DNA from: Clostridiales bacterium
GTDB taxonomy: Bacteria > Bacillota > Clostridia > Christensenellales > UBA3700
Direction of reading: 5' to 3'
DNA length: 64,000 bases
Assembly: GCA_014799575.1 (NCBI GenBank)
Contig: JAAVHS010000015.1
Location: 143,570-207,569 of the forward strand
Shown: piece after piece, positions 12,624-52,822 of the stretch
Layout of the letters: the number at the start of each line of letters is the position of its first letter
Numbering within the stretch: position 1 is the stretch's first letter
Notes under the pieces: generated by a model
Told to the model about the DNA's origin: nothing
Database searches by the model: none
Seen by the model: only the letters and a program-made list of their open reading frames with translations
Made by a program: the position numbers and the translations under genes

Positions 12624-13494
12624 GTTTCGTGCTTGCGCAAATAAGGTTGAGATTATCGCGGAAAAGTCCCGTTTGTTCTTCGTTCATATTTTGAATATAA
12701 TCAAAGTTAAAACCGCTCGTATCAAGACCGAAATGCGACGCAAGAATACATGCTCTACTGTCCGCTTCAATCTTTTCTGCGTTCTCGCCGGTCATACCTT
12801 CAAAGCCTCTTCCTTTATAGTTGTCGTTTATTGCCTTGCTTGCCGCTTCTATCGCAGTCAAAACCGTGGTAGTGTTATCCATTCCCTTACATATCTTAAT
12901 GGTTTTCTTCGCTTTGTCGATTTTATAGTTTTCATTCTGCGCGAACTCGGATTCGTCCGTAAACTTATATTTCCAATGCTTTGCAGACAAAGCCGAAAAT
13001 ACACCGTCAAGGATATTTTTTTTCTCTACGTCCGACACTTTCTTGCCAATTTTATAAGGCTTGTAATCCTCGCCTTCCGTTGCAGAAATATCGAATACGT
13101 ACACAGCATGGAATCCGTCAGTTCTTTCGCGGGTATGAACAATCTCTTTACCTTCTGCGTCAAGTTTCGGTTGATTATTCTCGTCTTTCTCTATTACTTC
13201 ATACTCGACTTTGGTAGGCGCAGTAATTTCCATACTCTTTGCACCCTCTTTGATATGTCTGCCGTCTCTTACCCATTCATTCATACCTTTCACAACCGTT
13301 ATCTCTGGGTTTTGGTCAAGCATGAGAAGAATATTGTTTACAGAATACTTGCTATTCTTACCGCATTTCAAAAGCAAATCTTTGTACTTGCCATCTGCTA
13401 TAATCTTCTTGTATTGCTCTTCGATTCTGTTATTGATTGCTTCTCTTTCTTCGTCCGTGTAGTTATTAACTACTTTTACATTCTTATCTTCCAT
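12469..13494 (-). CDS. ArdC-like ssDNA-binding / anti-restriction protein (N-terminal domain only recognised)
   Basis: 341 aa. KYSVNNILLMLDQNPEITVVKGMNEWVRDGRHIKEGAKSMEI and VYVFDISATEG match the ArdC-N pattern and the N-terminus of the 1935-aa protein. Confidence 0.7.
   Translation of the reverse strand: MEDKNVKVVNNYTDEEREAINNRIEEQYKKIIADGKYKDLLLKCGKNSKYSVNNILLMLDQNPEITVVKGMNEWVRDGRHIKEGAKSMEITAPTKVEYEVIEKDENNQPKLDAEGKEIVHTRERTDGFHAVYVFDISATEGEDYKPYKIGKKVSDVEKKNILDGVFSALSAKHWKYKFTDESEFAQNENYKIDKAKKTIKICKGMDNTTTVLTAIEAASKAINDNYKGRGFEGMTGENAEKIEADSRACILASHFGLDTSGFNFDYIQNMNEEQTGLFRDNLNLICASTKLVMDKISRAFYKDQQARAQAAPTPTATGGGCETAEEPFREGKAKHSEMEAA
12531..12575. other. Two adjacent GC-rich hairpins inside the ArdC-like/primase gene overlap
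   Basis: cacacccaccgcc-agt-ggcggtaggtgtg (13-bp stem, 1 mismatch) followed directly by gggcgc-tgctt-gcgccc. A GC island in AT-rich DNA. Confidence 0.7.
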
Positions 13495-40400: not shown

Positions 40401-41064
40401 CAGAAATATCAATAGTATCTTCATATGCATCATCTTTATAAAACGAGTAGGACTGCTCCGCAACGTTTGCCTTTTCGCCTAGATAATCTAGAGTAACATT
40501 ATAAATATCCATGTCGTCTGTTGGATTTTTTAAATAAATAGTCTTCTCTGTCTTACCTTCTTCATTTGCATAATAAACATCATAGAATTCTACATAAGGA
40601 TTATATCCTTCTTTTTCTATTCGCAATTCGACTATTTCCTCTGTCAATTTCACAAAAATCTGTCCAGACACATCTGTAAATCGAGGAACTCCATCAATGA
40701 CTATAACAGCTCCAGAAATTGCTTTATTTGTTTTACGATCCTTTACAGTAAATGTATGCCAAATTGGAACACTCTCGTATTCTGCCATTAAATTTATGCT
40801 TTCCGATGCTTTTCTTTGCTGATCTGCTATATATTCATCCTCTGATGTATATAATTTAATCCCTGCTCGTTCCAACACTTCTTCAGGTAAAACTTCTTGC
40901 ACTTCGCTAGATGTTGCGACAGCGGTAATTTCTTTGCTCTCAGTCTTCTCATTTTGTTTAAGCAGACTAAATGAAGTAGGTATTAATGTTACGAGCATAA
41001 TAACTAATAATACTGTTGCTATTGATTTTTTCATGGTTAACATATGTGTCTCCTGCATCTCCAT
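37459..41064 (-). CDS. Large secreted/surface protein, function unknown
   Basis: 1201 aa. Signal/anchor MKKSIATVLLVIMLVTLIP, a CarboxypepD_reg-like Ig segment, and C-terminal CARDB-like segments. These assignments are tentative. Confidence 0.6.
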   Translation of the reverse strand: MEMQETHMLTMKKSIATVLLVIMLVTLIPTSFSLLKQNEKTESKEITAVATSSEVQEVLPEEVLERAGIKLYTSEDEYIADQQRKASESINLMAEYESVPIWHTFTVKDRKTNKAISGAVIVIDGVPRFTDVSGQIFVKLTEEIVELRIEKEGYNPYVEFYDVYYANEEGKTEKTIYLKNPTDDMDIYNVTLDYLGEKANVAEQSYSFYKDDAYEDTIDISVEANGADTYYLYNGDTLIATSSDGNFLDLPVKDLDARGVAPAVRSTISQANDNIYLVTEKGGLRSRKTKIKVAVVELTDLPAEEYIKISLSDSLKLQLGETDFLGSCEIDIFKMLKEKLSINAGKVNISGSGLEVIHDNIRGSFQVVVGVKLDFKKDKKPKETKEEAAARKNENKKKFTSFVNSYKMRRDNINPKAKKQSVAKSLWGAFDKFYYKDMIAALPKLEKKMSLALNVVGYIEISDKVFTGEVKGKDGILSGGFNLELEGGVDFTKYHIVTAGPVPIPIYMTYGLGGAIEFDYDYEQLRELQHVLQLIVKFRGSIGGGVGIKQICSIGAYGKGEIDFLINILNGEDGLDIFLSFGVLVGILGYEIDWKIVDEKNVVNERAKMKYLSDNSNNNGTYMDARPQSVYINNEKLSVWIEKDDMRDNYNKTKLVYSYGDKMGSVLDDGKADYYPELKVIDNVAMVVWHKSTNVFDGESTIGDVFASSQIKVAQFNTTTGSFEEIKAYSLDTMSTLPKFVKNSTSQNMAIVWLNNTDNNPFGATGRNKLYCAERINSNWMQPYVIYETDSPISSFDATYMEGEINIAVSINEANDLESTDKLSIYYGKKNSLKAVEKVSQTMQCEPQFGNVNNSTVMFYYQDRSIKMLDIKNNTEKTIIQDSNLMDSYSVIEDVDSRIIYTIAADDSRELYLAQFDREKDSWTNGIYLDNNNNYIAINGCVVDSKIEIVGVTYEYSSNQNISIGEIKSESCELKADLGLDEAFMLDFVKLGDNEIYCFIKNKGCTNINEFKALINNEEQNVVLNQALLPNEERLIKIIWTCQSIPSVIDLKLDLINDGNGANDYTQIQVDYANIELNIVQHLKAGKESIALNINNAGYRAENAKVVIRRDNKNGEIVYESNEFIIQAGNNIEKLIELNYAELGCNYNDRLYIDIVTTNKQAISCGTAIIINEIVQPYNEADVDFVQDTLKIAKRVLGGVI

Positions 41065-41423
41065 CTTATTTTTTTATATTTTATTTTTACTCAAAATATT
41101 TACTACTATAAAAACTTACACCCATCATCATATTTGAATATCTTCTCTGAATTTTTTAGGATCTTTGGGCTCCTTCCACAACTATTCTATAACGATGACG
41201 ACCAGTTACGACGTTATCACCCTCTATAGTCCAATTATCATGTGTAATGATATACACTCTCTCACCCTCTATACATTCTGAGAACATTATTAATCTTAAT
41301 GGCGACTTTATCATAACTCCATAGTAATATTTATTTCAACCAACTTTACTTTGAACTTTGTCCATTTTATATGTATTTTTAGTTTTACAAACAATCCAAA
41401 TAGCTTAATTAGCAATTTTGCTC

Positions 41424-41464
41424 AAAAAAATAAGCAATTAAAATTGATTTAATTGCTTATTTTT
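41424..41464 (-). terminator. Rho-independent (bidirectional-looking) terminator
   Basis: 13-bp stem ataagcaattaaa / tttaattgcttat flanked by A7 and T5. Confidence 0.75.
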
Positions 41465-41487
41465 AACTTTTGCTACTTTTACCTAGT

Positions 41488-41976
41488 TTATTGTTTTATA
41501 ACATTGCCATTTCCATCTAATAAAACAATAGATGTTACCTTCTCTATCCAATCATCGGAATCATGTTTATATCGCATTAATGCACACCAATACTTTTGTT
41601 CTCCATTTGTGCTACAAGATGTGGATATGGTCTTAAAAATATTTAAATCTGTCGTTGTATTGCGACTTTCAAGCGTCATATTGGAAATATATTCTTGAAA
41701 CGTGTAAGATGAATAGAGTTCCACAACAACGGGTATCTTAGAATTGCCTATAGTAAAATCATTCTTCACTGTAGCCGTAACAATACCATCTTTTGCATTA
41801 ATTGAAAGCGATAGTTTTGTATAAATACCTCTAGCGTTATCATTTTCCATCTCTTCGCTTTCGATAGTATCTGCTTGTGCAACGATAGGATTAAAATAAA
41901 AACAAAACAACATAAATGTTAATAGTATAGTAATTGAAATTAAAAAAATTACTTTCGATTTGCCTTTTGTTATCAT
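41488..41976 (-). CDS. Secreted protein, function unknown
   Basis: 162 aa. Signal peptide ending IVAQA/DT. Confidence 0.55.
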   Translation of the reverse strand: MITKGKSKVIFLISITILLTFMLFCFYFNPIVAQADTIESEEMENDNARGIYTKLSLSINAKDGIVTATVKNDFTIGNSKIPVVVELYSSYTFQEYISNMTLESRNTTTDLNIFKTISTSCSTNGEQKYWCALMRYKHDSDDWIEKVTSIVLLDGNGNVIKQ

Positions 41977-42008
41977 AAACTAGTACTCTCCTAAAATGTT
42001 TATAAGTA

Positions 42009-42037
42009 TTATAAACCTTTATCTATCACTTGTCAGT
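42009..42037 (-). promoter_or_regulatory. SigA-type promoter for the 162-aa gene
   Basis: Minus strand CTGACA, 17 nt, TATAAT, ~30 nt upstream of the AGGAG RBS. Confidence 0.55.
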
Positions 42038-42078
42038 CTAGTAAACTTGTATATTCGTCCATATTACATTGTTTTTTA

Positions 42079-42627
42079 TTATTTTTTACGACTTTTGCTT
42101 AAAAAACAAATAAGAGTAACGATAGCTCCTACTAATACCGCAACTAATAATACAAATAAACCTATATTCACTGATTGTGGCATTCTCCAATGTGCGGATT
42201 GTACTGTATCTATTCCTTTATTGGTAGTGAATAATGTAATAGATAATATAAATATTGACAAACCTGCAAAAATAGTAACAATGATTAGCATAATGATACT
42301 TAACTTTTTATGCTTTTTAGGTCGTTTCTCATCTTGCTGAATCTGCTCTTCTACTATTTCATCTTTACTTTTATTATCATTTTCTACACGTTGCGCTTCA
42401 AGCATTGTTGCGCAAGTTTCATTATCTTGCTCTACAAACTCATTTGCGCTTACATTAAATGTTTCACAAATCACTTTTATTCTAGCAAAATTAGGCTTAC
42501 TAGTTCCTAACTCCCAAGATGAAACTGTTTGTTTTGCAACTCCCACTCTATAAGCAAATTCTTCTTGAGATAAACCGTTTTTCTTTCTTGTTTCTCTTAT
42601 CTTGTCGCCTATGTAATTATCTTCCAT
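42079..42627 (-). CDS. XRE-family HTH regulator with C-terminal membrane anchor
   Basis: 182 aa. IRETRKKNGLSQEEFAYRVGVAKQTVSSWELG. Two C-terminal TM helices. Confidence 0.8.
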   Translation of the reverse strand: MEDNYIGDKIRETRKKNGLSQEEFAYRVGVAKQTVSSWELGTSKPNFARIKVICETFNVSANEFVEQDNETCATMLEAQRVENDNKSKDEIVEEQIQQDEKRPKKHKKLSIIMLIIVTIFAGLSIFILSITLFTTNKGIDTVQSAHWRMPQSVNIGLFVLLVAVLVGAIVTLICFLSKSRKK

Positions 42628-42822
42628 TATTTCTCTCGCAAATTATTTTATTATATCAAGTTCATTTGATTTTGTCTTTAATCTTATGTTGTTATTATAC
42701 TATAACTATAATGAATTTTCAAGAACTATCGTTAATTTATTTTGATAGTATAATCTTATCGACATTATCTTCCATTTTTCGACATCCAACATATATAATT
42801 ATAAATATAAAACAATAATTTT

Positions 42823-43006
42823 ACAAGCAACTTTACTCGACATCTTGTCAACTTTAGTTTACATTATGCCGATTTACACTTAACATCTTGTCAACTTTTG
42901 TTTACATTATGTAAACTTACACATAATGATTTGTCAACTTTACTTAACATTGTGTAAACTCACACGCAAAATCATGTTAACTTTACTTAACATTGCGTGA
43001 TTTGTT
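42823..43006. repeat. Array of 4-5 direct repeats, period 42-46 bp (iteron or operator-like)
   Basis: Units start near 42823 (partial), 42841, 42884, 42930 and 42972. Core (c/t)ttgtcaactttNNtt(t/a)acatt(a/g)tg. Unit 2 contains the palindrome tttacat-t-atgtaaa. Confidence 0.75.
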
Positions 43007-43078
43007 ATTAAAAAAATAAAATACACTTTATTGTTTGGTAGAATTAAATATTTTTCTTATTTGAACAAATTTTGAATA

Positions 43079-43591
43079 TTACGGTTTAATTATAATAATT
43101 TCTAAACCTTGATTACGCGCATAATCTATTGTTGATTTAGTTCCCCCATATAGACCATTAAATAACGCTATCATTAGCGATGAATTGTTTACCATAAATC
43201 TATTTCTTTCCAACATACATTCAGGTCCAATATATGTATCAAATTTGCAACGGATTCCGTCTAATTGTTTTAGTAGTTCTCTATATCGTTCTCTATCTTT
43301 ATATTGCCATATTTTATCTTGAGTTTTGCAAGGCAATGCGCCTATGATCTTTATGCCGCTATACTTTTTCTTTAATGCAAGAATTGTTTCCGCGCATATC
43401 ATATCAAAACCAAGCGCCATTCCGCAAAGAAAGGTCCTGTACCCTCTCTCTATTACTTTTTCCAATTCCGTTCGCAATGTTTCTTTCATTACTTTGCAAC
43501 GCTCATCTTCTTCATTAAACCGCCAAGGCAACTTCTGACTCCTATGCCCTGTAAAACATACCGCTCGCTCTTTCTCTATAATTTCACACAT
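43079..43591 (-). CDS. SLOG-fold DUF1273 (YpsA/YoqJ-like) protein
   Basis: 170 aa. CFTGHR, GYRTFLCGMALGFDMICAE, ERNRFMVNNSSLMIALFNG..GGT. Confidence 0.65.
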   Translation of the reverse strand: MCEIIEKERAVCFTGHRSQKLPWRFNEEDERCKVMKETLRTELEKVIERGYRTFLCGMALGFDMICAETILALKKKYSGIKIIGALPCKTQDKIWQYKDRERYRELLKQLDGIRCKFDTYIGPECMLERNRFMVNNSSLMIALFNGLYGGTKSTIDYARNQGLEIIIIKP

Positions 43592-43756
43592 AAAAAATGC
43601 CGCCCTTTGCAGAACGGCACTGTAGATATACCGTCCACCGCAGTCGCCAAACCAAAAGCAGAATTCCCCAACGAGAAAATCAGCGCGATGTAGGTATAGT
43701 TCTACCTATAGCTCGCGTCGGGTACTTTTATATTCTACTTTTAGTTTGGCATATTG

Positions 43757-43785
43757 ATTATATCAAATTACTATTTATGTGTCAA
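43757..43785 (-). promoter_or_regulatory. Consensus SigA promoter driving a ~165-nt leader of the SLOG gene
   Basis: Minus strand TTGACA, 17 nt, TATAAT (plus-strand tgtcaa 43780-43785, attata 43757-43762). Confidence 0.7.
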
Positions 43786-43787
43786 TC

Positions 43788-43815
43788 AAAAGAGCCGTTC
43801 CTTACGGAATGGCCC
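43788..43815 (-). terminator. Rho-independent terminator after ORF 43828-44181
   Basis: Minus-strand GGGCCAUUCC-GUAA-GGAACGGCUC followed by UUUUGAUU. Confidence 0.7.
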
Positions 43816-43827
43816 TTCTGACACTCA

Positions 43828-44181
43828 TTACTTATTCACATCTAATACCCCACTTGAAATCAAGTGATTCTTTACTTTTATAGGAAATACCTTTGCCAAG
43901 TCCATTAGTTCCTTTGTGGATATTTTGTTTTTCACAATGAATTCTATTATCCTTTCTTTAACTAAATCATTCAACTTTGTCTGTGTTCCCATATCCACAA
44001 ATAGTTGTAGTATTTTATAAGCATTTACATTTGCTTTTGAGATTTGGCAACGCGCTTTTCTTAACACAAATTTTCTACCGCCAATCTCAATTTTCCTACA
44101 CTTCATTTCGCCGTTGCTTGTCACAATTTCAACAACGTCAGGCATTTGCGACGTAACTGAAAATTCATTCTGCAATTTCAC
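43828..44181 (-). CDS. C-terminal part of an AbiEi-type (DUF6088-like) protein, tentative
   Basis: 117 aa with a GTG start overlapping the upstream stop (GTGA). FSVTSQMPDVVEIVTSNG..RKIEIGGRKFVLRK resembles the middle of AbiEi-family antitoxins. Confidence 0.4.
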   Translation of the reverse strand: MKLQNEFSVTSQMPDVVEIVTSNGEMKCRKIEIGGRKFVLRKARCQISKANVNAYKILQLFVDMGTQTKLNDLVKERIIEFIVKNKISTKELMDLAKVFPIKVKNHLISSGVLDVNK

Positions 44182-44459
44182 ACCGCTATAAATTCCATAG
44201 ACATTAGAACATACTTTTTGTTCATTACGTCATCAGACGTTATTGTAGGCAATCCTAAATCAGCCTTTTGTGGGATATAATATACCCCACTACTGAATTG
44301 CGCAAGTTCACCAACGGACTTTGACTTATTTATAAGACGAAACACATAAGCGCGCGTATATTCTGCAAACAACTCCAATATCTCGTTCGTAAATATGGGT
44401 TCATTGCTACTGAACTTCTTTTTCAATCTATTGGCAAACGAAACTTGACTTTTATCCAT
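44178..44459 (-). CDS. AbiEi-type N-terminal winged-helix-like protein, tentative
   Basis: 93 aa. FTNEILELFAEYTRAYVFRLINKSKSVGELAQFSSGVYYIP resembles the AbiEi N-terminal domain. Confidence 0.4.
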   Translation of the reverse strand: MDKSQVSFANRLKKKFSSNEPIFTNEILELFAEYTRAYVFRLINKSKSVGELAQFSSGVYYIPQKADLGLPTITSDDVMNKKYVLMSMEFIAV

Positions 44460-44467
44460 ATTTACTC

Positions 44468-47400
44468 TTATCTTCTATTCATAGCCTTTTGCTCTTTCAA
44501 GTAATCGGCATATCTTTCGATTTGATCTTCCCTAAGGTCAATCATATCTTTTGCTGTTCCAAACGCTTGTGCATCCGCTACAATGAGTTCCGTTTCCTTG
44601 ACTTTTATCTTAGAACCGTCGCTAGTCGCATTACGGCGAATATCTTTCATATACTCATCTTCCATTTTATAAAGCGCAACAACCGTGTCTTTCTTGATCG
44701 TCAACTTCAACAATGGATTTGCCGTATTCGGTCCAAAGACTACAAAGTACGTTGACTTCTTCTCTTTGCATTTATCCTTTGAGAGAGCGTAATCTCTAAG
44801 TCCGTCAAAGTACTTCTTCTGTTCTTTACTAAGAGTTGCGTAAGCCTCATCAAGCGTAAGACGTGGAGCAACTTCCTTTTTAGGCTTTGGCGCAGCTGCC
44901 ACCTTAACTTCCTTGATTACCTGTTTTTCAACTACCTTTTCTACAGGCACTTCGACAACCTTTTCTACGACCTTCTCGACTTCGATAGGTACTTCCTTGA
45001 CGACTTCCTTCTCGACTATCTTCTCTACCGGTACTTCAACAACTTTCTCCACTACCTTTTCGACAGGAACTTCAACAACCTTCTCTACGACTTGCGGTTG
45101 ATTGTTTTGGTTGGCAGACAGCTCTAATATCTTTGCCATAAGCAATTCTTGGTTTTTCAACATCTGCTTTATTGTCTCGTCATTTTGTCCGCTTTGCGTT
45201 ACTACTTTAAGTATAGTTTCATCGCTTATGTTTGAAGAAATCGGTTGTAACTTATTAACAAGTTTTTCCAACGTTTCTTCGCTTATGTTGGCGCTTGCGA
45301 CTTCTCTTTCAGCGGGCATCTCAACAAGTTGTTGCATCAACTTCTCAACGCGCCTTTCCGTCTGCTCATTAAGTTTTCTCAATCGTTCTTCATTTTGTGC
45401 GTTCTGCTCCATCAGTTTCTGTACAAACACATCGTTGTTTGCAGTTTCCGAAGGTTTCTCGGCGAGTTGCTTCATAAGTTTCTCATTTTGGTCAATTAGC
45501 TTTTGCACCATCTCATCGTTTGTCGATGCTTGTTGCGGTAACATTTGTTGCATACCTGGGAGCATTGCCGTAACGGTCTCGGATATAAGTCCTCTCATAT
45601 CATCTGCTGTTAAGCCTTGTTGATAAGCAAAACCGCCTTGAGCTCCCGCTCCGCCTGCATTTCCGCCCATCATACCCATGAGCATCATACGCATATTTTC
45701 ATCGCGTTTTTTCTCGTCAAAATCAGCCTTATTGCGATTGTATTCGTCGAGATGATCTTCGTACTCTTCTTCCGCTTTATTGCGTCTTGACTTGGCAATC
45801 AACATCATTACAAACGATACCACTGCCATTACAATCAACACACACGCTATTGCAGTCCATATAGACATTGCCACGCCCAAGAATGCTCCTGCGTACATAC
45901 TCTCCAACTTACTTGCTTTCTTGTTGAACTTCTTTCTCTCTCCGTCATACTTTGCAGTCTTTGATAAGAATACTATAATAAGTATTATGCTTATAAAACT
46001 TGCTATCAACTGCCACAATGGTATTTCTTTGAGTTTCTCTAATATCTCTTCAAGTGAGCCGCCAAATAAGCCTCCACCCTCATTATTGTTGGGGGGATTT
46101 TCGCCGCTTTGGTCTCCGCTGTTTGGATCTTTGTTATCGTCCTCATTAGGAGCATACGTAACTTCTTCCACAACGGAATTACTTGCGTCTATCATTGCAT
46201 AGTTGCTATTGTTAAGTTTAGCGACTACTTTTGCTACTTCCACTCCGTCTGCAATTTCTGCAAGCGTAAGTTCATAGCCATCTTCGTCATAATACGTATA
46301 CGTAAACTCTATATCGCTGTTTCCTCTAACACTCAACTTAGGCAAACCGCTTTCTTCATCTGTCGTCCAATTCAACCTATTTTGCGTTATAGTTGCCTTT
46401 TCAATCTTGACGGTAACAGTGTAACTATCCGTAGTTCCGTCTTCGTCATCCCAACAGAATATTTCTTCATCTTCAAGGCTAATTCTTATGGTGTATTCGC
46501 CCGCATCGGTCAAGTTGCCATCTAGTATTTCAAACTTGACACCCGTAGGCATTTCATCTCCGCTTCTCAAGAATTCTTCGATAGTATGCGGATTTCCGTC
46601 ATAGGTAATTTTCTTGTTGGTATCGAATACAGGTTTTACAATAGATGCGCTCGATCCCGGTCGAAGTACCGTCTTTGGCTCGCCGTATATCTTGATATCG
46701 TCCTCGTAGCCATCTTTAGCGAACAACTCTTTGAAGTATGGAACGCCTGTTTCCATATCTCTAATACCATTTGCAAGAATATTGCCATCGCTGTCTTTAT
46801 ATCTGTAATCTACGTAGGATTTTACCCAATCGTCCAATACTGCCGTAGCGTTGGTATTATTACCTTGCCACTCCAAGTTTATCTCATAAGCCTTTACTCT
46901 TACCAAAGTGGAAGCCGCCGGCCAAACTCCGTCTTGCCAATCTATATTGTCATAATCTAACAAATCAAATACTACTGTGTACTCGCCCGCCTTGATTGCC
47001 TTGTAAGCGTCTCCGTCAAGTCCGTCAAAAGCGCTACCGTCTTTCGTGATGGTAATCGTCATATAATTTTCCCATCCCTCTTCGGTTATGCCAAACATTT
47101 GGGCGAAATCGTGTACTTCTCCGTCAAATACCGTCCAACTCTTGTCAAATACAGGAGTCGGCAATATCTTGACTGAAATGCTCCAATTCAATCTTGTCTG
47201 CAAAGAGCTTGGCATAACTACCGTCTCATAGTTGCTACCCAAGTCAGCGAGTGCGTATTGTATTGAATAATTACCCACTTTGCTCTGTGTACGTTCACCG
47301 CTATTATAAGAGATATAATCTTTCAAGATTTCGGGTACGTTGATAAGTCCGACGGTATATGATGCTTCTCTACCGCTTGCTCTAGTATACGGCAATGCTC

Positions 47401-49978
47401 CCGTATATTCCGTTTCTTCTCCGTCTCCAATTACGTATCCCCATACGATAGCCGACGCATCTACCTTGGCTTTTGCTATGCTCCAAGAAAGCGTAGTCGG
47501 GAAGTTGGGCGCATTGTAATTCTTGGTATCGTAAGAGAACGTAATACGCGCGGTATAGTCGTTGCCCGCATTGGTTTCTTCGTGACCTATTACGCTTATG
47601 CTCAAGCCGTTTATACTGTCCTTACCGACAAGCGTCAACGTATGCGCCGTATTATCATACGTCATCGGATCAATTTCATTGTTGCTTGCATCCAACCACT
47701 TGTTTTGGTCGAAATCATATGTAGCCGCAACGTTGCCGTGTGTATACTGCCATTTGAGTCCGCTCACGTCAAAGTCGGCTTTGATTATCTCGAAATTAAA
47801 TTCCAAACATCCGCTGTCAATATAGTTATCCTCTGCTTTATCGCTATTAAGTACGACTTCTATTCTGTACTTACCCACTTCCGTAGGTTCGCCAATAATA
47901 GGACTAGTAGCTCCGTCCTTGTAGTAATGAAGCGTGATATCTTGCGCTCCTACTCCGCCATCGGCTTGAAGTATCTCTATACTAGGCGAGTATGCGCTAC
48001 CTGTGTATGACAACTGTTTGTCTTGGATATTCTCGCCATTCCATTGCAATTCCAACTTGACAACGAATTTATCCTTACCAATGACGAACGTGTATTCTGC
48101 CGTATCGCCTGTCGATAACTTATAATTCCCGCTATACGCTGTCTTGAGCGTAGCCACTACCCTATACGTGGTCTCTTCTGTTACTTCATCAGGACTCGGC
48201 AACGTGGTAACTTGTTCGCTGCCTTTATAATAAGTATAGTCTACCATGTTCGCTTGTGGAAGATTGTTAAGCGTAGGCCACGTGTATTGAGTCACGTTTC
48301 CGTTGTTGTCATTCTTCCAACTTACGCTGATTGTCGCTTGGATTATCTTCCAACTTACAGAAAATTCGAAGTCATCGCCTATATAAGAAGTCTTATCACT
48401 CGCAATAGGTACGATATAATTATTCACGTAATCTGACGTTATACTAAACGTAACGGTCGTGGTATAGTCGCCCACGGGCGTTTTACTTCTGTCGCCTGTA
48501 TACGTCGCTGTCAAACCTGCGGGCAATACGCCTTGCAATTCCATGCTTTGCGGAGATCCGTTGTATTCTAATTGTTTTACGCTAGGCCAACTCAATCCCG
48601 TCAAATTGTACTTCGCCTTATCTATGCGATAAGACAAAGTATATTGCTTGGTGTAAGTCTCGTAAGTGTTGTCTAAATTCGTTAAATGAACTGTGACTGA
48701 ATATAGCGACGTACTAGCGTTTGTTGCGCTAATATTTCCGCTATATCCGCCCGTAGTACCACTCTTGGTCGTGTCTATCTTGACGCCGTGCGAAGCAAGT
48801 ACGCTGTCGTCTATGCTAAACGTATACGGACTGCCTGTGTATACAACTGAATAATTCGTAGGATAGCCTATTGAAATACTATTGCACAACCAATCAATAT
48901 CTGTGTCTTGTAGCGTAATACCTACTCCGCTGACGTGGAATACCAACGTCTTTGGCGTAGACAACGTGTAATTGCCGTTGGCATTACTACTGCTTGCGTT
49001 AGCCTTTTCGACGTATATCGTATAGTCGCCTTTGGCAATGCCCGTCGGCATTGTTATAGTAGTTGTCTTACCGCTTACTACTTTAATGGTATTGATTTCA
49101 TCGTACTTTGTGCCTGTACCTATACTGTTATTTATATAATATATCTTTAATTCTATTGTATCATTAGTATATGAATCTTCCGTTATCGTTACGGTAGGTT
49201 GAACTCCGTAATTCCAAGTATTGTTGTTTGCATCGCAACTTATTGTGATGCCCAACGCTTTTGGATTTATTGTCACAGGCAATGAAAAACTATCCGTTCC
49301 ACCGCTCGACCACACCATTGAGCTTTTCTCGACTAGCGAAAACGTGACGTAATAAGTACCCGCGTCTTTGACTTTCAATTTACCGTCTTTCAACTCTAAT
49401 ACGCCATCTTTTAACTCTAATATATTATTGTCTTTTTTGATATTATCGATTTTAACGTCATCGCTCAATCCGTTGATGGTAAATTCTTGCAGTTCGCCGT
49501 TATACGACAAAGTATTCGACCCTATGGTCGGCTTTGTCACGGGTTTTGCGGTAATCGAAAGGTCAGGCGTTGCTTTGCAAGTACCTTTCAATTCATAGTT
49601 ATTGTTTGGGTTCATCGTCGCTGTGACGGTATACGTACCTACCGCAGTGGGATATTGGGTATATGTTTCGCCCGTTAAATTGTTTTTGTAAGTAATAGTA
49701 AACGTCGGCGCTCGATCTCCTGTATCGCTGTCGTATATCTTATTGGCGTCAGGGTCGTTGGCAACGACTATAGGCGTGACGGTATAACCTCCGCCGCTCG
49801 ACGTAGGTTTTATCTCACATTCTATAGGTTTTTTCTTGATTGTAAATGTAAATTTTCGAGTTGTAGCGTCTTCACCTTTGCTTACATCGGGGTCGCCTTT
49901 GAACGTAAATTCCGGGTCTTCTTGTAATTTCTGGTCAGAAATCTTCGCCGTCACTGTATAAGTGCCGGCGTCTTTCAT
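44468..49978 (-). CDS. MBG-repeat surface protein, distal part of the DGR target. The frame stays open upstream to 50209.
   Basis: 1836 aa as listed. Repeated AGTY(T/Y)VT...YNG MBG-type units, a TM helix (LWQLIASFISIILIIVFL plus a second helix), and a cytoplasmic tail with EKVVEVPV repeats. No signal peptide and no clear RBS at the listed ATG. Confidence 0.7.
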   Translation of the reverse strand: MKDAGTYTVTAKISDQKLQEDPEFTFKGDPDVSKGEDATTRKFTFTIKKKPIECEIKPTSSGGGYTVTPIVVANDPDANKIYDSDTGDRAPTFTITYKNNLTGETYTQYPTAVGTYTVTATMNPNNNYELKGTCKATPDLSITAKPVTKPTIGSNTLSYNGELQEFTINGLSDDVKIDNIKKDNNILELKDGVLELKDGKLKVKDAGTYYVTFSLVEKSSMVWSSGGTDSFSLPVTINPKALGITISCDANNNTWNYGVQPTVTITEDSYTNDTIELKIYYINNSIGTGTKYDEINTIKVVSGKTTTITMPTGIAKGDYTIYVEKANASSSNANGNYTLSTPKTLVFHVSGVGITLQDTDIDWLCNSISIGYPTNYSVVYTGSPYTFSIDDSVLASHGVKIDTTKSGTTGGYSGNISATNASTSLYSVTVHLTNLDNTYETYTKQYTLSYRIDKAKYNLTGLSWPSVKQLEYNGSPQSMELQGVLPAGLTATYTGDRSKTPVGDYTTTVTFSITSDYVNNYIVPIASDKTSYIGDDFEFSVSWKIIQATISVSWKNDNNGNVTQYTWPTLNNLPQANMVDYTYYKGSEQVTTLPSPDEVTEETTYRVVATLKTAYSGNYKLSTGDTAEYTFVIGKDKFVVKLELQWNGENIQDKQLSYTGSAYSPSIEILQADGGVGAQDITLHYYKDGATSPIIGEPTEVGKYRIEVVLNSDKAEDNYIDSGCLEFNFEIIKADFDVSGLKWQYTHGNVAATYDFDQNKWLDASNNEIDPMTYDNTAHTLTLVGKDSINGLSISVIGHEETNAGNDYTARITFSYDTKNYNAPNFPTTLSWSIAKAKVDASAIVWGYVIGDGEETEYTGALPYTRASGREASYTVGLINVPEILKDYISYNSGERTQSKVGNYSIQYALADLGSNYETVVMPSSLQTRLNWSISVKILPTPVFDKSWTVFDGEVHDFAQMFGITEEGWENYMTITITKDGSAFDGLDGDAYKAIKAGEYTVVFDLLDYDNIDWQDGVWPAASTLVRVKAYEINLEWQGNNTNATAVLDDWVKSYVDYRYKDSDGNILANGIRDMETGVPYFKELFAKDGYEDDIKIYGEPKTVLRPGSSASIVKPVFDTNKKITYDGNPHTIEEFLRSGDEMPTGVKFEILDGNLTDAGEYTIRISLEDEEIFCWDDEDGTTDSYTVTVKIEKATITQNRLNWTTDEESGLPKLSVRGNSDIEFTYTYYDEDGYELTLAEIADGVEVAKVVAKLNNSNYAMIDASNSVVEEVTYAPNEDDNKDPNSGDQSGENPPNNNEGGGLFGGSLEEILEKLKEIPLWQLIASFISIILIIVFLSKTAKYDGERKKFNKKASKLESMYAGAFLGVAMSIWTAIACVLIVMAVVSFVMMLIAKSRRNKAEEEYEDHLDEYNRNKADFDEKKRDENMRMMLMGMMGGNAGGAGAQGGFAYQQGLTADDMRGLISETVTAMLPGMQQMLPQQASTNDEMVQKLIDQNEKLMKQLAEKPSETANNDVFVQKLMEQNAQNEERLRKLNEQTERRVEKLMQQLVEMPAEREVASANISEETLEKLVNKLQPISSNISDETILKVVTQSGQNDETIKQMLKNQELLMAKILELSANQNNQPQVVEKVVEVPVEKVVEKVVEVPVEKIVEKEVVKEVPIEVEKVVEKVVEVPVEKVVEKQVIKEVKVAAAPKPKKEVAPRLTLDEAYATLSKEQKKYFDGLRDYALSKDKCKEKKSTYFVVFGPNTANPLLKLTIKKDTVVALYKMEDEYMKDIRRNATSDGSKIKVKETELIVADAQAFGTAKDMIDLREDQIERYADYLKEQKAMNRR
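44905..45092 (-). repeat. In-frame tandem repeat encoding (V/I)VEKVVEVPVEK units
   Basis: Protein VVEKVVEVPVEKVVEKVVEVPVEKIVEKEVVKEVPIEVEKVVEKVVEVPVEKVVEKQV. The corresponding DNA units recur with small changes. Confidence 0.7.
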
Positions 49979-50128: not shown

Positions 50129-50149
50129 AGATTTTAGATTAAGATGAAA

Positions 50150-50207
50150 CGCGGGCCGAACCGCGGCCGGCGGCGGTAAACTAACAAGCCGAACGCAGCC
50201 ACGAATA
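50150..50207 (-). repeat. DGR variable repeat (VR), collapsed form
   Basis: 58 nt identical to 52674-52731. Flanked on its 3' side (coding sense) by TTTCATCTTAATC, where the TRs have CTTCACTC(A/G)CTTG (an IMH versus IMH*-like difference). Confidence 0.75.
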
Positions 50208-51269
50208 GCTTACGCTATTCCCGGAAACGGTTGTTGATGTAGATCTTTGATTTGTCGATGTTTTCCACAAGCCATTGGCTGTGTCAGCATATCCTACTTC
50301 TGCAAAACTAGGCAACCATAGCCTATCGTTTCCCCATGCTAAATAAGAATCTGTATTTACCGTAGTACACGTGTAATAAATACGCGGACTGTTAGCCGTC
50401 GTATACTGATACATATTCTCCGTTATCGGCGCTCCCAAACAATCATTGTTTGCGTCATAAGAATATGACGAATGTAGAGCTTGTTTCTTTGCGCTCTCTT
50501 TTTCATTATTCTTTTGATAAGGCGTATTGTTAGGTATTTCTATGAAATCTGTCAAACTTCCCTTCATTCCGGGAGTTGTATTGGGCACTGTGAATTTTGC
50601 GTAAGTACTGCTTACTTGCTGCTGAATGTTTTCCGTTGCGCTTGTATTACTTCTTGCAAAATAACCGCCGTTGTTCAATACCGCTGTCGCCATTGCGCTT
50701 GTGCCGTAAGAGTTGGACGGATAAGTATTCACGCTGTTTGTACTATTGGTAGGATTCCATGCTATATTTACCCCTGTTGCCATAGCATTGGTACTCACGT
50801 TGTAATAATTAAGTGATATTGCGTCCGCTTGCCATAAAGTCAATATCGGATCGCCATTCGCATTCTGCGATAGATACGTCGCCGTCCACGGTTTTCCGTC
50901 TATCATTACAACTACGTCAGCTCCACCATTGTTAGTGCGGAAGTCTGCCGACGTCTTTTCCGTACTTCCAAGACCTTCAAGTGTAGCCGCTGTAGGATTG
51001 GTCACTCCTGATATCTTACTGACGAGTTTCCAAAATATCTCGCCGTTGAATACGTTACCCTTGCCTGTGGTATCATCCGCATATCCATCAAGCAACATCT
51101 CAGTCGTCGTATTATCATCTGCTTTCAATGCCGTATAATTACCTTGAAAGGCATTGGCTACTTCGCTACCATTAAATAATATCCCCACACAACTAAACAC
51201 TATTGCCAATACCAATATTGACACCAACGCTGTTGTTATTCTCTTATTTCTGCTTTTTTCATTATTCAT
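50181..51269 (-). CDS. Proximal part of the DGR target: signal peptide plus a WLRS-type (C-type-lectin/DUF6273-like) domain truncated in the VR
   Basis: 362 aa. TM/signal ITTALVSILVLAIVFSCVGILF. C-terminus ..RLWLPSFAEVGYAD..SVSYSWLRSAC-stop. Confidence 0.75.
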   Translation of the reverse strand: MNNEKSRNKRITTALVSILVLAIVFSCVGILFNGSEVANAFQGNYTALKADDNTTTEMLLDGYADDTTGKGNVFNGEIFWKLVSKISGVTNPTAATLEGLGSTEKTSADFRTNNGGADVVVMIDGKPWTATYLSQNANGDPILTLWQADAISLNYYNVSTNAMATGVNIAWNPTNSTNSVNTYPSNSYGTSAMATAVLNNGGYFARSNTSATENIQQQVSSTYAKFTVPNTTPGMKGSLTDFIEIPNNTPYQKNNEKESAKKQALHSSYSYDANNDCLGAPITENMYQYTTANSPRIYYTCTTVNTDSYLAWGNDRLWLPSFAEVGYADTANGLWKTSTNQRSTSTTVSGNSVSYSWLRSAC

Positions 51270-52081: not shown

Positions 52082-52271
52082 GAAGTGAGCCTTGCCGCCG
52101 TAGCAATAAAAGCATTAACCGTCATTACAGGACAAGGCTCTGTTTCGTCTTTGCCACTAACATTGTCGACAAAAACAGGACAAAAGTTTCCTTCATCTCT
52201 ATCTTATCTGTCCGCTCGACCGTGATCGATACGGATACGGGAATTCCTTGCCTAATAGCAAGTGAGTGAAG
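52082..52271 (-). ncRNA. TR1-flanking conserved segment (DGR spacer-like RNA, copy A)
   Basis: Blocks shared with 52483-52673: atccgtat.gat, agcggacaga, gagatgaagg, aaacagagccttgtcct, atgacgg, ggctcac (coding sense). The complementary gagcct(t)g / c(a)aggctc segments are kept in both copies. Confidence 0.45.
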
Positions 52272-52388
52272 CGCGGGCCGAACCGCGTTGGTATTATTGA
52301 CATTATTGTTATTCATAGAAGTGCCGGCGGCGGCTAGTCTGTATGAATTGTTGTAATTGTTATAATTAGCCGAACGCAGCCACGAATA
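52272..52388 (-). repeat. DGR template repeat TR1 (full length, adenine-rich)
   Basis: Coding sense encodes YSWLRSA-NYNNYNNSYRLAAAGTSMNNNNVNNTN-AVRPA. 12 of the 27 central codons are AAY. Confidence 0.8.
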
Positions 52389-52482
52389 ATACGGCAACCA
52401 GATACAAAAACTTCTACCCTGCGCCCATTATAGCATATCACTTACTGAAATATCAACTTTTTCTATAACATAAAGTAAAAAT

Positions 52483-52673
52483 GTGAGCCTCGCCATTTTT
52501 ACGCTAAAAGCAGTCATTGTTTTCCACCGTCATCGTAGGACAAGGCTCTGTTTTGTCTCTCCCGCCTTTGCGGTCAAGACTAGACGAAATCCCCTTCATC
52601 TCATATCTTCTGTCCGCTTGACCTTAATCAATACGGATGCTGGAAATACTTATCTTTTGACAAGCGAGTGAAG
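52483..52673 (-). ncRNA. TR2-flanking conserved segment (DGR spacer-like RNA, copy B)
   Basis: Homologous in blocks to 52082-52271. Directly follows TR2. Confidence 0.45.
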
Positions 52674-52731
52674 CGCGGGCCGAACCGCGGCCGGCGGCGG
52701 TAAACTAACAAGCCGAACGCAGCCACGAATA
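52674..52731 (-). repeat. DGR template repeat TR2 (deletion derivative, identical to the VR)
   Basis: Equals TR1 with a clean 35-nt deletion and 34 nt replaced by 10 nt. Carries the TR-type 3' flank CTTCACTCGCTTG. Confidence 0.7.
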
Positions 52732-52822
52732 CATACAAACCTCAAACAAAAGATTTCGCCGTGTGTATTATATTGTATATAATAATTTACTATCACTTCA
52801 ATAGATATAGTAATTTCTATGT

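What the first reader, a model, noticed from the sequence alone, without database searches (positions are those of the whole stretch)
42823..43006. Iteron-like array of 42-46-bp direct repeats between the SLOG gene and the XRE regulator
Four full units and one partial unit share the core ttgtcaactttNNtt(t/a)acatt(a/g)tg. They sit at regular spacing in a non-coding stretch. One unit contains the palindrome tttacat-t-atgtaaa.

Regular phasing of a ~20-nt core suggests cooperative binding of a protein. This could be a replication-initiator iteron set for an element that encodes its own primase. It could also be a partition site, or an operator array for the membrane-anchored XRE regulator 200 bp away.
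Basis: seen in the sequence. Interest (0 to 1): 0.55.

Follow-up and report, generated by a model that had tools for sequence, protein, structure and literature searches.

The report
Regulator-binding repeats upstream of a promoter
The repeats are real, but they look like a row of docking sites for a gene-activating protein rather than a replication origin: the same sites sit at a fixed distance in front of surface-protein genes in related gut Clostridia, so this mobile element seems to have wired its cargo genes into a host control circuit.

Summary
The array is real. It runs 42823-42994 on the minus strand (the gene direction), with period 43 bp made of eight 21/22-bp sub-units. Four are strong copies of AATGT(A/T)AA(C/G)nAAAGTTGACAA; the motif occurs nowhere else in the 64 kb.

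The same unit occurs as 2-3 tandem copies, 21-22 bp apart, at chromosomal promoters in Clostridia MAGs, several labelled Christensenella. It always lies between an upstream terminator or gene end and a promoter, in one orientation. A -10 hexamer sits exactly 32-33 nt after the proximal unit. The genes behind it encode secreted proteins, lipoproteins or a short RNA. Two pairs of orthologous loci keep the repeats while the flanks diverge.

No Rep or Par gene lies nearby and there is no DnaA-box cluster. XRE-TM homologues at 77-79% and about 50% identity have an invariant recognition helix, yet no such site lies within 10 kb of the four that have long flanks.

Best reading: an upstream activator-site array for a trans-acting, probably host-encoded, factor that drives promoter P1 (TTGTAA-17-TATAAT) ahead of the XRE-TM/secreted-protein operon. 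The geometry matches LytTR-type sites: a 9-mer AAAGTTGAC, 12/13-bp spacers, and 10 bp to the -35. The binding protein is not identified. The iteron, partition-site and XRE-operator readings are not supported.

The parts
42823..42994 (-). Whole array: eight contiguous 21/22-bp sub-units (u1 distal to u8 proximal), i.e. four 43-bp units
   Evidence: TRF period 43 and 21; direct-repeat families D1 and D2; unit coordinates
42973..42994 (-). u1, strong unit AATGTTAAGTAAAGTTAACATG (9-mer AAAGTTAAC)
   Evidence: PWM built from non-window units scores it 21.0 bits; 9-mer matches 7/8 of the LytTR consensus
42952..42972 (-). u2, weak unit ATTTTGCGTGTGAGTTTACAC. It keeps only the 9-mer TGAGTTTAC, in register.
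   Evidence: 6/8
42930..42951 (-). u3, strong unit AATGTTAAGTAAAGTTGACAAA
   Evidence: PWM 29.9 bits
42909..42929 (-). u4, weak unit TCATTATGTGTAAGTTTACAT (9-mer TAAGTTTAC in register). Its 3' end plus the start of u5 form the palindrome GTTTACATAATGTAAAC (42900-42916).
42887..42908 (-). u5, strong unit AATGTAAACAAAAGTTGACAAG, identical to the consensus of the chromosomal sites
   Evidence: PWM 33.4 bits, the maximum
42866..42886 (-). u6, weak unit ATGTTAAGTGTAAATCGGCAT. It keeps ATGTTAAG but has lost the 9-mer.
   Evidence: my re-count in the shifted register gives 4/8
42844..42865 (-). u7, strong unit AATGTAAACTAAAGTTGACAAG
   Evidence: PWM 32.7 bits
42823..42843 (-). u8, promoter-proximal degenerate unit ATGTCGAGTAAAGTTGCTTGT. 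Its 9-mer AAAGTTGCT (42826-42834) overlaps the -35 hexamer by one base.
   Evidence: (2.6 bits); the same arrangement occurs in L143 and L086
42798..42826 (-). Promoter P1: -35 TTGTAA (42821-42826), 17-nt spacer, -10 TATAAT (42798-42803). Proposed target of the array.
   Evidence: Promoter scan, 10/12 matches. Its architecture is conserved in chromosomal loci L143 and L086. The -10 lies 42 nt after u7, i.e. 21 nt after u8.
42737..42775 (-). Remnant duplicate of the 5' end of an XRE-TM gene (ATGGAAGATAAT..., MEDNVDKIILSK*) just downstream of P1
   Evidence: Direct repeat D3, 42764-42803 against 42616-42655, 73%; sequence. That it records a past recombination is inferred.
42694..42722 (-). Promoter-like site P2, TTGAAA-17-TATAAT
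   Evidence: 11/12
42650..42678 (-). Proximal promoter P3 (AAGACA-17-TATAAT with TG) containing the palindrome ATCAAATGAACTTGAT (42655-42670). Candidate auto-operator of XRE-TM.
   Evidence: This segment, not the array, is conserved upstream of XRE-TM homologues L145 (88%) and L147 (79%).
42079..42627 (-). XRE-family HTH protein with two C-terminal transmembrane helices (182 aa); first gene downstream of the array
   Evidence: Pfam HTH_3 1.6e-14; alignment of homologues
41488..41976 (-). 162-aa secreted protein, conserved partner of XRE-TM
42995..43078 (.). AT-rich spacer (GC about 14-24%) between the SLOG stop codon and the array. It contains no hairpin terminator.
43079..43591 (-). YpsA/SLOG-family gene (170 aa) upstream of the array. 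Its association with the array is not conserved elsewhere.
   Evidence: Pfam YpsA 3.3e-28; other loci have unrelated upstream genes

Best explanation
The array is a cis-regulatory element, not a replication or segregation site. It is a row of binding sites for a sequence-specific transcription factor that acts in trans. That factor is probably encoded by the host chromosome, because no candidate was found on the element.

The sites sit immediately upstream of, and in u8 overlap, the -35 of promoter P1 (TTGTAA-17-TATAAT, 42826-42798, minus strand). P1 reads into the XRE-TM gene, the 162-aa secreted-protein gene and, probably, the surface-protein cargo behind them.

The unit AATGTWAASnAAAGTTGACA is the recognition element of a small regulon in Clostridia MAGs, several labelled Christensenella. 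At chromosomal promoters, two or three units 21-22 bp apart lie at a fixed distance from the -10 hexamer, in one orientation, usually in front of weak -35 hexamers. This is the anatomy of activator-dependent promoters.

The geometry is that of LytTR-type regulators (AgrA, ComE, VirR, LRS):
- a 9-mer AAAGTTGAC, read in the direction of transcription;
- 12-13-bp spacers;
- the proximal 9-mer 10 bp from the inferred -35.

The element carries an expanded version: four strong and three or four weak units over 170 bp. This should give cooperative, switch-like occupancy, so the cargo operon is expressed when the host factor is active.

Shown: the repeats, their conservation, their orientation, their spacing to -10 hexamers, and their independence from the XRE, SLOG and Rep genes. 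Inferred: that P1 fires, that the factor activates rather than represses, and that it is LytTR-type. I put the LytTR sub-claim at about 0.35-0.4 on its own.
For: 1. A genome-collection scan for one unit returned 119 loci. Among its 124 pattern hits, the best partner at +/-21-22 or +/-41-44 bp has 8-13 mismatches of 19 in 102 hits, the chance background. It has 0-3 mismatches in 12 hits, in seven loci. Six of those loci are Clostridia MAGs (L028, L034, L042, L051, L120, L138). The seventh is the unexplained GC-rich locus L065.
2. L042 and L120 lie on one contig, and L051 and L138 come from one MAG, so there are several sites per genome.
3. Oriented by the motif, every locus reads: terminator or gene end, repeats, promoter-like sequence, gene. 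The downstream products are:
   - a 1557-aa secreted protein plus an ABC ATPase (L042);
   - lipoproteins (L120, L138);
   - a secreted protein, a lipoprotein and an ABC transporter (L028);
   - membrane-anchored paralogues (L034);
   - short terminator-ended transcripts (L143, L086, L051).
   The window's own downstream genes all carry signal peptides, anchors or a lipobox.
4. A -10 hexamer matching at least 5/6 lies exactly 32 nt after the proximal TTGACN in L028, L120, L051 and L138, and 33 nt after it in L042. In L034 the -10-like hexamers (4/6) lie 30-32 nt after a third, degenerate unit. In the window and L143 the -10 lies 42 nt after the last full unit, which is 21 nt after the degenerate unit.
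5. Phylogenetic footprints:
   - L120 and L138 are orthologous sites just downstream of clpC. They keep the repeats although the rest of the spacer does not align.
   - L143 and L086 are orthologous. They keep the units, the -35 and the -10, while the flanks diverge.
6. A PWM built only from non-window units finds exactly four sites in the 64-kb window, all in the array.
7. LytTR criteria from the literature:
   - consensus [TA][AC][CA]GTTN[AG][TG], repeats 12-13 bp apart, upstream of the -35 (PMC5600425);
   - 9-bp repeat, 12 bp, 9-bp repeat, with a strong bias to 10 bp upstream of the -35 (PMC6193735);
   - VirR boxes precede genes for secreted proteins and three small RNAs (PMC4877802).
   AAAGTTGAC matches 7 of the 8 specified positions. 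Seven of the eight window units carry such a 9-mer in register.
Against: - No binding protein is identified. No LytTR, AraC or OmpR-type gene is present in the window or in the 8-kb array loci (low sensitivity).
- Conservation covers the whole 19-bp unit, including ATGTAAAC inside the would-be LytTR spacer. A 9-bp LytTR site does not explain that.
- In the window the strong units are 43 bp apart, not 21-22, and u6 lacks the 9-mer.
- P1 lies 165-170 nt upstream of the XRE start codon. Two further promoter-like sites (P2, P3) lie in between, so the XRE gene need not depend on P1.
- The -35 positions are inferred from the -10 hexamers; there are no transcription data.
- One unit in each locus was selected by my search pattern, so the sequence logo is biased. 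Only partner units, spacing and context are independent evidence.
- The host of the window is unknown.
Confidence: 0.66

Rival explanations
1. The array is an operator array for the adjacent membrane-anchored XRE regulator. XRE-TM dimers would bind the pseudo-palindrome TGTAAAC-N4-GTTGACA, or GTTTACA-N3-TGTAAAC at unit junctions, and would autoregulate their own operon. Chromosomal copies would be served by XRE-TM paralogues acting in trans.
For: - The XRE-TM gene is the first gene downstream.
- The unit contains heptamers related by dyad symmetry (6/7), and one perfect 8-1-8 palindrome lies at 42900-42916.
- A remnant XRE 5' end sits right after P1. This suggests an ancestral arrangement of array, then P1, then XRE.
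- The contig that carries the L143 array also carries an XRE-TM homologue elsewhere.
Against: - The HTH, including the recognition helix, is invariant in homologues down to 47% identity.
- Even so, a PWM finds no site within 10 kb of them in 12 loci (L004-L015), nor on the short contigs L145-L148. TRF finds no array.
- L147 (79%) and L004 (77%) have short, unrelated upstream regions.
- The segment that does travel with the gene is the P3 region with ATCAA-N6-TTGAT.
- None of the six chromosomal array loci has an XRE gene next to it.
- Strict orientation and fixed distance to the -10 fit an asymmetric activator better than a symmetric repressor.
Confidence: 0.12
2. The array is the binding site of a transcription factor of another direct-repeat-binding family. 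One candidate is an AraC/XylS-type monomer, whose two HTH motifs would read ATGTAAAC and AGTTGAC one helical turn apart, with monomers 21 bp apart as at araI1-I2. The other is an OmpR/PhoB-type winged-helix regulator reading GTnnAC boxes every 10-11 bp, as at the ompF F1-F3 sites.
For: - The whole 19-bp unit is conserved, with two sub-sites about 10.5 bp apart (position counts).
- Units are head-to-tail at 21-22 bp, are orientation-specific, and lie upstream of or overlapping the -35.
- The resemblance to AraC and OmpR site architecture rests on my own knowledge and was not tested here.
Against: - No such regulator gene lies in the window or next to any array.
- The 10-bp gap to the inferred -35, the 12/13-bp spacers and the 7/8 match to the LytTR consensus fit LytTR more specifically (PMC6193735, PMC5600425).
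- In u2 and u4 only the 9-mer half survives.
Confidence: 0.25
3. The array is an iteron-type replication origin. An element-encoded initiator would bind the 21/22-bp repeats and melt the adjacent AT-rich stretch, allowing the excised element to replicate.
For: - The array has 21-22-bp head-to-tail repeats in helical phase, as in R6K and pPS10 iterons (PMC4980987).
- An 84-bp stretch with GC down to 14% adjoins the array.
- The element encodes a primase-polymerase-like protein at 11634-12623.
Against: - No Rep-family gene lies in the window. The nearest genes are SLOG, a frameshifted DUF6088 gene, XRE-TM and secreted proteins. The prim-pol gene is 30 kb away.
- There is no perfect DnaA box, and only one 1-mismatch box within 300 bp.
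- The GC-skew slope does not change at the array.
- The motif occurs in 2-3 copies at several chromosomal promoters per genome, at a fixed distance from -10 hexamers.
- No plasmid or phage record carries a similar array.
- Related conjugative-element loci that encode RCR-type Rep proteins (REP_ORF2-G2P) have no such array.
Confidence: 0.04
4. The array is a partition (centromere-like) site or an oriT accessory site of the conjugative element.
For: Arrays of short phased repeats are typical of type Ib and type II centromeres (my own knowledge). The element is conjugative, with a MobL relaxase, a coupling protein and a VirB4-like ATPase.
Against: - No ParA/ParB/ParM/ParR-type gene was detected.
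- The relaxase gene is 15 kb away.
- The chromosomal promoter-linked copies argue against an element-specific maintenance site.
Confidence: 0.02

Closest known systems
LytTR-family activator sites (AgrA P2/P3, ComE DR1-DR2, VirR boxes, LytTR regulatory system operons)
   Same: - Imperfect 9-bp direct repeats that fit [TA][AC][CA]GTTN[AG][TG] (AAAGTTGAC, 7/8).
- 12-13-bp spacers.
- The repeats lie just upstream of a usually weak -35; the 10-bp gap is the modal value reported for LRS operons.
- The target genes encode secreted or surface proteins, ABC transporters and a small RNA, as in the VirR and AgrA regulons.

Sources: PMC5600425, PMC6193735, PMC4005675, PMC4877802.
   Different: - No LytTR protein is identified.
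- The 'spacer' itself is conserved (ATGTAAAC).
- Known sites are pairs. Here there are up to eight units, with the strong ones 43 bp apart.
- In the window, L143 and L086 the proximal 9-mer abuts the -35 instead of lying 10 bp away.
Plasmid iterons (R6K, pPS10 22 bp; RK2 17 bp; F, P1 19 bp)
   Same: Head-to-tail direct repeats of about 22 bp in helical phase, in an intergenic AT-rich region of a mobile element (PMC4980987).
   Different: - No cognate Rep gene is present.
- There is no DnaA-box or 13-mer DUE organisation.
- The identical motif occurs at chromosomal promoters in fixed register with -10 hexamers.
- The motif is absent from plasmid records.
Tandem activator sites of OmpR/PhoB-type or AraC/XylS-type regulators (ompF F1-F3, pho boxes, araI1-I2)
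   Same: Asymmetric units of about 20 bp, each made of two sub-sites one helical turn apart. Several units lie contiguously upstream of, or overlapping, the -35, and they are orientation-dependent. This comparison rests on my own knowledge.
   Different: The sub-site sequences do not match any consensus I know for these families. No such regulator gene lies nearby. This was not tested beyond Pfam scans of neighbouring genes.
Cro/CI-type (XRE) operator arrays of phages and integrative elements, e.g. ImmR sites of ICEBs1
   Same: Several phased sites lie next to an XRE-family regulator gene on an integrative conjugative element.
   Different: - The sites are direct repeats, not dyads.
- They lie upstream of the promoter core rather than over it.
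- They do not co-occur with the regulator gene among homologues.

Membership tests
Iteron-type replication origin | Several direct repeats of about 17-22 bp in helical phase | tested here: met
   Eight 21/22-bp units
Iteron-type replication origin | A cognate Rep initiator gene, normally adjacent | tested here: not met
   Pfam and PHROG scans of all larger ORFs found no Rep. Neighbours are SLOG, DUF6088, XRE-TM and secreted proteins. The prim-pol-like gene is 30 kb away.
Iteron-type replication origin | An AT-rich DUE and DnaA boxes next to the repeats | tested here: inconclusive
   An AT-rich 84-bp spacer is present. There is no perfect DnaA box and no local cluster. 13-mer repeats were not examined.
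Iteron-type replication origin | The repeats are specific to the replicon and its origin | tested here: not met
   The same unit occurs in 2-3 copies at chromosomal promoters in at least five MAGs or contigs.
Iteron-type replication origin | The fragment supports autonomous replication or incompatibility | not testable with these tools
   Needs an experiment
LytTR-type activator binding site | Imperfect 9-bp direct repeats fitting [TA][AC][CA]GTTN[AG][TG] | tested here: met
   AAAGTTGAC matches 7/8. Seven of the eight window units carry a 6-7/8 match in register; consensus from PMC5600425.
LytTR-type activator binding site | Repeats separated by 12-13 bp (11-13) | tested here: met
   Unit period is 21-22 bp in the window and in L028, L034, L042, L051, L120, L138, L143 and L086.
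LytTR-type activator binding site | Proximal repeat 4-11 bp (typically 10) upstream of the -35 | tested here: met
   In five chromosomal loci there are 33 nt (34 in L042) from the last base of the 9-mer to the -10, which equals 10 + 6 + 17. The -35 is inferred. In the window, L143 and L086 the proximal 9-mer abuts the -35, one helical turn closer.
LytTR-type activator binding site | A LytTR-domain protein that binds the repeats | not testable with these tools
   None was found in the window (Pfam) or in the array loci (phmmer). The host genomes are not available in full, and binding needs an experiment.
Auto-operator of the adjacent XRE-TM regulator | The site co-occurs with the regulator gene among homologues that share the recognition helix | tested here: not met
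   The helix is invariant. There is no site within 10 kb in L004-L015, nor on the short contigs L145-L148.
Auto-operator of the adjacent XRE-TM regulator | Dyad-symmetric half-sites that overlap the promoter core | tested here: inconclusive
   Heptamers are related by imperfect dyad symmetry (6/7) and there is one perfect palindrome. The units are head-to-tail and lie upstream of the -35. A better dyad sits over P3.
Partition centromere (parS/parC-like) | An adjacent partition ATPase and centromere-binding protein genes | tested here: not met
   No ParA/ParB/ParM/ParR domains in the scanned ORFs

The most novel reading that the evidence does not exclude
An integrative conjugative element of uncultured gut Clostridia has captured, and amplified to 7-8 units, the recognition site of a host regulator. 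The LytTR-like geometry suggests a quorum-sensing or envelope-signal regulator. That regulator otherwise controls chromosomal surface-protein genes and a small RNA. The element would therefore listen in on a host signal to time expression of its membrane-anchored regulator and surface-protein cargo. At four strong plus three or four weak sites, it might also titrate the host factor and alter the host regulon when present.
Probability: 0.2. Interest if true: 0.55.

Novelty: new member of a known kind. Interest (0 to 1): 0.35.

Why it matters
- **Annotation.** The result removes a false lead. This is not an origin, so it gives no evidence that the element replicates autonomously through iterons.
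- **A testable regulon.** It defines a concrete motif, AATGTWAASnAAAGTTGACA in tandem at 21-22 bp, 32 nt from the -10, for a poorly studied group of gut Clostridia. The targets are secreted proteins, lipoproteins, ABC transporters and a candidate small RNA.
- **Host control of a mobile element.** It gives an example of a conjugative element placing its cargo operon under what appears to be host control.
- **Next step.** The motif can be used directly to scan complete genomes, find the regulator (autoregulated operons usually carry their own site) and design binding assays.

Tried and rejected
- **Close relatives in annotated collections.** blastn of 41000-44500 and of the array alone against phages and plasmids gave nothing useful.
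- **Known RNA families.** Rfam at gathering threshold on the window, at E-value threshold on 42000-43700, and on seven array loci found nothing at the arrays.
- **Viral contigs.** A scan for two-copy patterns gave 0 hits.
- **Metagenome contigs.** The scan for two-copy patterns gave 6 hits. One was relevant (L143). The rest were unrelated repeats: an L141 satellite, L140, L144, and L139/L142, which are unclear.
- **The array as a companion of the SLOG gene.** Rejected, because upstream genes differ in every other locus.
- **Other motif families from memory.** I compared the unit by eye with Spo0A boxes (TGTCGAA), ECF-sigma -35/-10 elements, TnrA/GlnR sites (TGTNA-N7-TNACA; here the spacer is N8), LexA/Cheo boxes, CcpA cre, CtsR and WalR sites. 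None fitted both sequence and spacing. These are not tests.
- **The repeated TTGACA as stacked -35 boxes.** Rejected, because no -10-like hexamer lies 16-18 nt downstream within the repeats.
- **Finding the regulator.** The only hit was an irrelevant one in a Bacteroidota locus.
- **L065.** This GC-rich contig has three similar units at 41-43 bp at its end. I could not interpret it.
Full report
**1. Observation**

The repeats are real.
- Tandem Repeats Finder reports 42840-42994 with period 43, 3.6 copies, 81% matches and score 161. It also reports a period-21 reading at 42828-42918.
Shuffles predict 0.25 matches in the window, and there is no match elsewhere in the 64 kb.
- Read on the minus strand, which is the direction of every flanking gene, the array resolves into eight contiguous sub-units, u1-u8.
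- Four are strong: u1, u3, u5 and u7, of the form AATGT(A/T)AA(C/G)nAAAGTT(G/A)ACA.
- Four are weaker: u2, u4, u6 and u8.
- The array is identical in two other assemblies. It has 5 substitutions in a 98% identical relative.

**2. Context**

The window is an integrative conjugative element. All its genes lie on the minus strand.
- It carries a tyrosine integrase, a diversity-generating retroelement reverse transcriptase, a MobL relaxase, a coupling protein, a VirB4-like ATPase, DNA methylases and a primase-polymerase-like gene at 11634-12623.
- The array lies in a low-GC segment. It sits between the stop codon of a YpsA/SLOG gene (43079-43591) and an XRE-family HTH protein with two transmembrane helices (42079-42627).
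- Downstream come a 162-aa secreted protein, then a 1201-aa, a lipobox-bearing 240-aa and a 1653-aa protein. All have signal peptides or anchors.
- Three sigma-70-like promoters lie between the array and the XRE start. P1 (TTGTAA-17-TATAAT, 42826-42798) has a -35 that overlaps u8. P2 is at 42722-42694. P3 is at 42678-42650.

**3. Is the array tied to the XRE gene?**

It is not.
- A protein search gave a graded series of XRE-TM homologues at 99, 88, 79, 77 and about 50% identity.
- Their HTH, including the recognition helix, is invariant, so they should read the same DNA.
- Only the 99% relatives, which also share the SLOG gene, have the array.
- L147 (79%) and L004 (77%) have short, unrelated upstream regions.
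- The roughly 50% homologues have a small extra HTH gene upstream instead.
- A PWM finds no unit within 10 kb of the XRE-TM gene in 12 loci (L004-L015). It also finds none on the short contigs L145-L148, which hold only 82-600 bp of upstream sequence.
- What is conserved with the gene is the P3 segment, with its palindrome ATCAA-N6-TTGAT, seen in the window, L145 and L147. That palindrome is the likelier auto-operator.
- A 12-codon remnant of an XRE 5' end (MEDN...) lies just downstream of P1. This suggests the array-P1 module was fused in front of an XRE gene that already had its own promoters.

**4. Where else is the motif?**

- A genome-collection scan for one unit gave mostly single chance hits. 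For each of its 124 pattern hits I scored the best partner at +/-21-22 or +/-41-44 bp.
- The distribution is bimodal. The background has 8-13 mismatches of 19. Twelve hits in seven loci have 0-3 mismatches.
- Six of the seven loci are Clostridia MAGs: L028, and L051 with L138 (labelled Christensenella); L034; and L042 with L120 (Clostridiales, one contig).
- The seventh locus, L065, is a GC-rich contig of unknown origin with three units at 41-43 bp at its end. I could not interpret it.
- L086 carries a unit plus a degenerate unit.
- A metagenome scan for two-copy patterns added L143. It lies on the contig that also carries an XRE-TM homologue, but at a different place, next to uppS and ppx.
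- These are chromosomal contexts: asnB and hup; pncB and lgt; ctsR-mcsB-clpC; uppS.

**5. Anatomy at those loci**

- Oriented so that the unit reads ATGT...GTTGAC, every locus shows the same order: a terminator hairpin or gene end, then 2-3 units, then a promoter-like sequence, then a gene or a short transcript.
- Downstream products are a 1557-aa secreted protein with an ABC ATPase (L042), a lipoprotein family (L120, L138), a secreted protein, a lipoprotein and an ABC transporter (L028), and membrane-anchored paralogues (L034).
- In L143 and L086 the downstream product is a roughly 130-nt transcript. It ends in a terminator stem with 4 compensatory pairs.
- The spacing is fixed. A -10 hexamer matching at least 5/6 lies exactly 32 nt after the proximal TTGACN in L028, L120, L051 and L138, and 33 nt after it in L042.
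- In L034, -10-like hexamers (4/6) lie 30-32 nt after a third, degenerate unit (my count).
- In the window and L143 the -10 lies 42 nt after the last full unit, i.e. 21 nt after the degenerate unit that overlaps the -35. This is the same face of the helix, one turn closer.
- About 3-4% of positions in these regions match at least 5/6. Five of five at one or two offsets is therefore far beyond chance, even allowing for post-hoc choice of the offset.
- The hexamers at the inferred -35 positions are weak in three of the five loci.
- Orthologous pairs keep the units and promoter hexamers while the surrounding spacer diverges. L120 and L138 lie after clpC. L143 and L086 lie before ppx.

**6. Mechanism**

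This is the anatomy of an activator-dependent promoter with tandem upstream sites.

The published LytTR criteria are:
- 9-bp imperfect direct repeats fitting [TA][AC][CA]GTTN[AG][TG], 12-13 bp apart, upstream of the -35 (PMC5600425);
- two 9-bp repeats with a 12-bp linker in ComE promoters (PMC4005675);
- a 9-bp repeat, 12 bp, then a 9-bp repeat, with a strong bias to 10 bp upstream of the -35, in LytTR regulatory systems (PMC6193735);
- VirR boxes in front of genes for secreted toxins, a protease and three small RNAs (PMC4877802).

How this array compares:
- The 9-mer AAAGTTGAC, read in the transcription direction, matches 7 of the 8 specified positions.
- It recurs every 21-22 bp.
- In five loci it ends 33-34 nt before the -10, which equals a 10-bp gap plus a 6-bp -35 plus a 17-bp spacer.
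- In the window, seven of eight units keep such a 9-mer in register, including u2 and u4, which have lost the other half of the unit.

I therefore rank a LytTR-type binder first, but only at about 0.35-0.4.
- The ATGTAAAC half is also conserved in the chromosomal sites. A LytTR site does not explain that.
- A two-HTH AraC-type monomer or tandem winged-helix protein would explain it.
- No regulator of any of these families is encoded in the window or beside any array.
- The factor must act in trans and is most simply host-encoded.

The element's version has four strong and three or four weak units over 170 bp. It is larger than any chromosomal site seen here. That predicts cooperative, switch-like occupancy and possibly titration of the factor.

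**7. Why not an origin or centromere?**

Iteron origins are defined by a Rep initiator, iterons, a DUE and often DnaA boxes (PMC4980987).
- Only the phased repeats and an AT-rich neighbour are present here.
- There is no Rep gene and no DnaA-box cluster.
- The skew slope does not change at the array.
- No similar array exists in 72,556 plasmid or 50,697 phage records.
- The motif is shared with chromosomal promoters.
- No partition genes were found.
- The relaxase is 15 kb away.

**8. Verdict**

- The general idea of cooperative protein binding is right.
- The iteron, partition and XRE-operator readings are not supported.
- The array is best explained as an expanded upstream activator-site array of a regulon found in Clostridia MAGs (several labelled Christensenella), placed in front of an ICE cargo operon.
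- It is a new member of a known kind of element. It is of moderate interest, mainly as a handle on an uncharacterised regulon and as a case of a mobile element wired to host regulation.

Noticed in passing
window 52125-54466, 50145-50207: A diversity-generating retroelement. The RT has a bAvd-like C-terminus (52823-54466, minus strand). The template repeat at 52609-52689 matches a variable repeat at 52207-52287 at 81%; the variable repeat lies inside a 90-aa ORF with a DUF6273-like end. A second copy of the conserved 3' element (50145-50207, 98% to 52669-52731) lies at the end of the 362-aa gene 50181-51269, suggesting a second target.
   Followed up: partly
window 43828-44459 (minus strand): The two ORFs of 93 and 117 aa are one frameshifted DUF6088 gene. 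The 98% identical relative L016 has an intact 213-aa protein (tblastn: residues 1-84 in frame -1, residues 88-213 in frame -3).
   Followed up: yes
window 41487/41488; L016 3978: The window and L016 are 98.3% identical from the large upstream gene through SLOG, the array, XRE-TM and the 162-aa gene. Similarity stops exactly at the stop codon of the 162-aa gene. Downstream, the window has large surface proteins, while L016 has a radical-SAM/DUF1611/ABC cluster. So XRE-TM plus the 162-aa gene heads exchangeable cargo cassettes. One assembly contig (L001) also ends near here.
   Followed up: partly
window 42737-42775 (minus strand): A remnant copy of the XRE-TM start (ATGGAAGATAAT..., MEDNVDKIILSK*) lies 150 bp upstream of the real start. 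It is part of direct repeat D3 (42764-42803 against 42616-42655), a scar of promoter-region recombination.
   Followed up: partly
window 42655-42670: The palindrome ATCAAATGAACTTGAT overlaps the proximal promoter P3. It is conserved upstream of XRE-TM homologues L145 (88%) and L147 (79%), which lack the array. It is the likely auto-operator of XRE-TM.
   Followed up: partly
L143:1772-1906 (minus strand) and L086:412-556: A candidate small RNA of about 130 nt lies downstream of an array-type promoter in two orthologous chromosomal loci, before ppx. It has a conserved core TTCAA(T/A)GTAGGCTAAAAT and a terminator stem with 4 compensatory pairs. It has no Rfam match.
   Followed up: partly
L004, L007-L015, L016, L145-L148: XRE-TM (177-200 aa) is always followed by a 158-162-aa secreted protein (68-86% identical to the window's in the two compared, L004 and L007). 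The loops and transmembrane region of XRE-TM carry an invariant FTTNxGIxTxQSxHW motif. The pair looks like a membrane-bound one-component sensor with a secreted partner, placed in front of ABC-transporter or peptide-modification cargo.
   Followed up: partly
L065:7439-7533: A GC-rich (53%) contig of an unidentified bacterium ends in three units, ATGTAAA(A/G)(G/A)AAAGTTAACA, spaced 41-43 bp apart, like the window's strong units. The downstream gene is unclear, so this may be the same kind of site in an unrelated lineage or a coincidence.
   Followed up: no
window 44907-45100: In-frame 12/24-nt periodic repeats lie inside the 1836-aa gene (44468-49978), which has no Pfam match. They imply a repetitive low-complexity protein segment.
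   Followed up: no
window 11634-13494: A primase-polymerase-like protein (NrS-1 polymerase HBD domain, BT4734-like N-terminus) lies next to an ArdC-N-like protein. It is 30 kb from the array.
   Followed up: no
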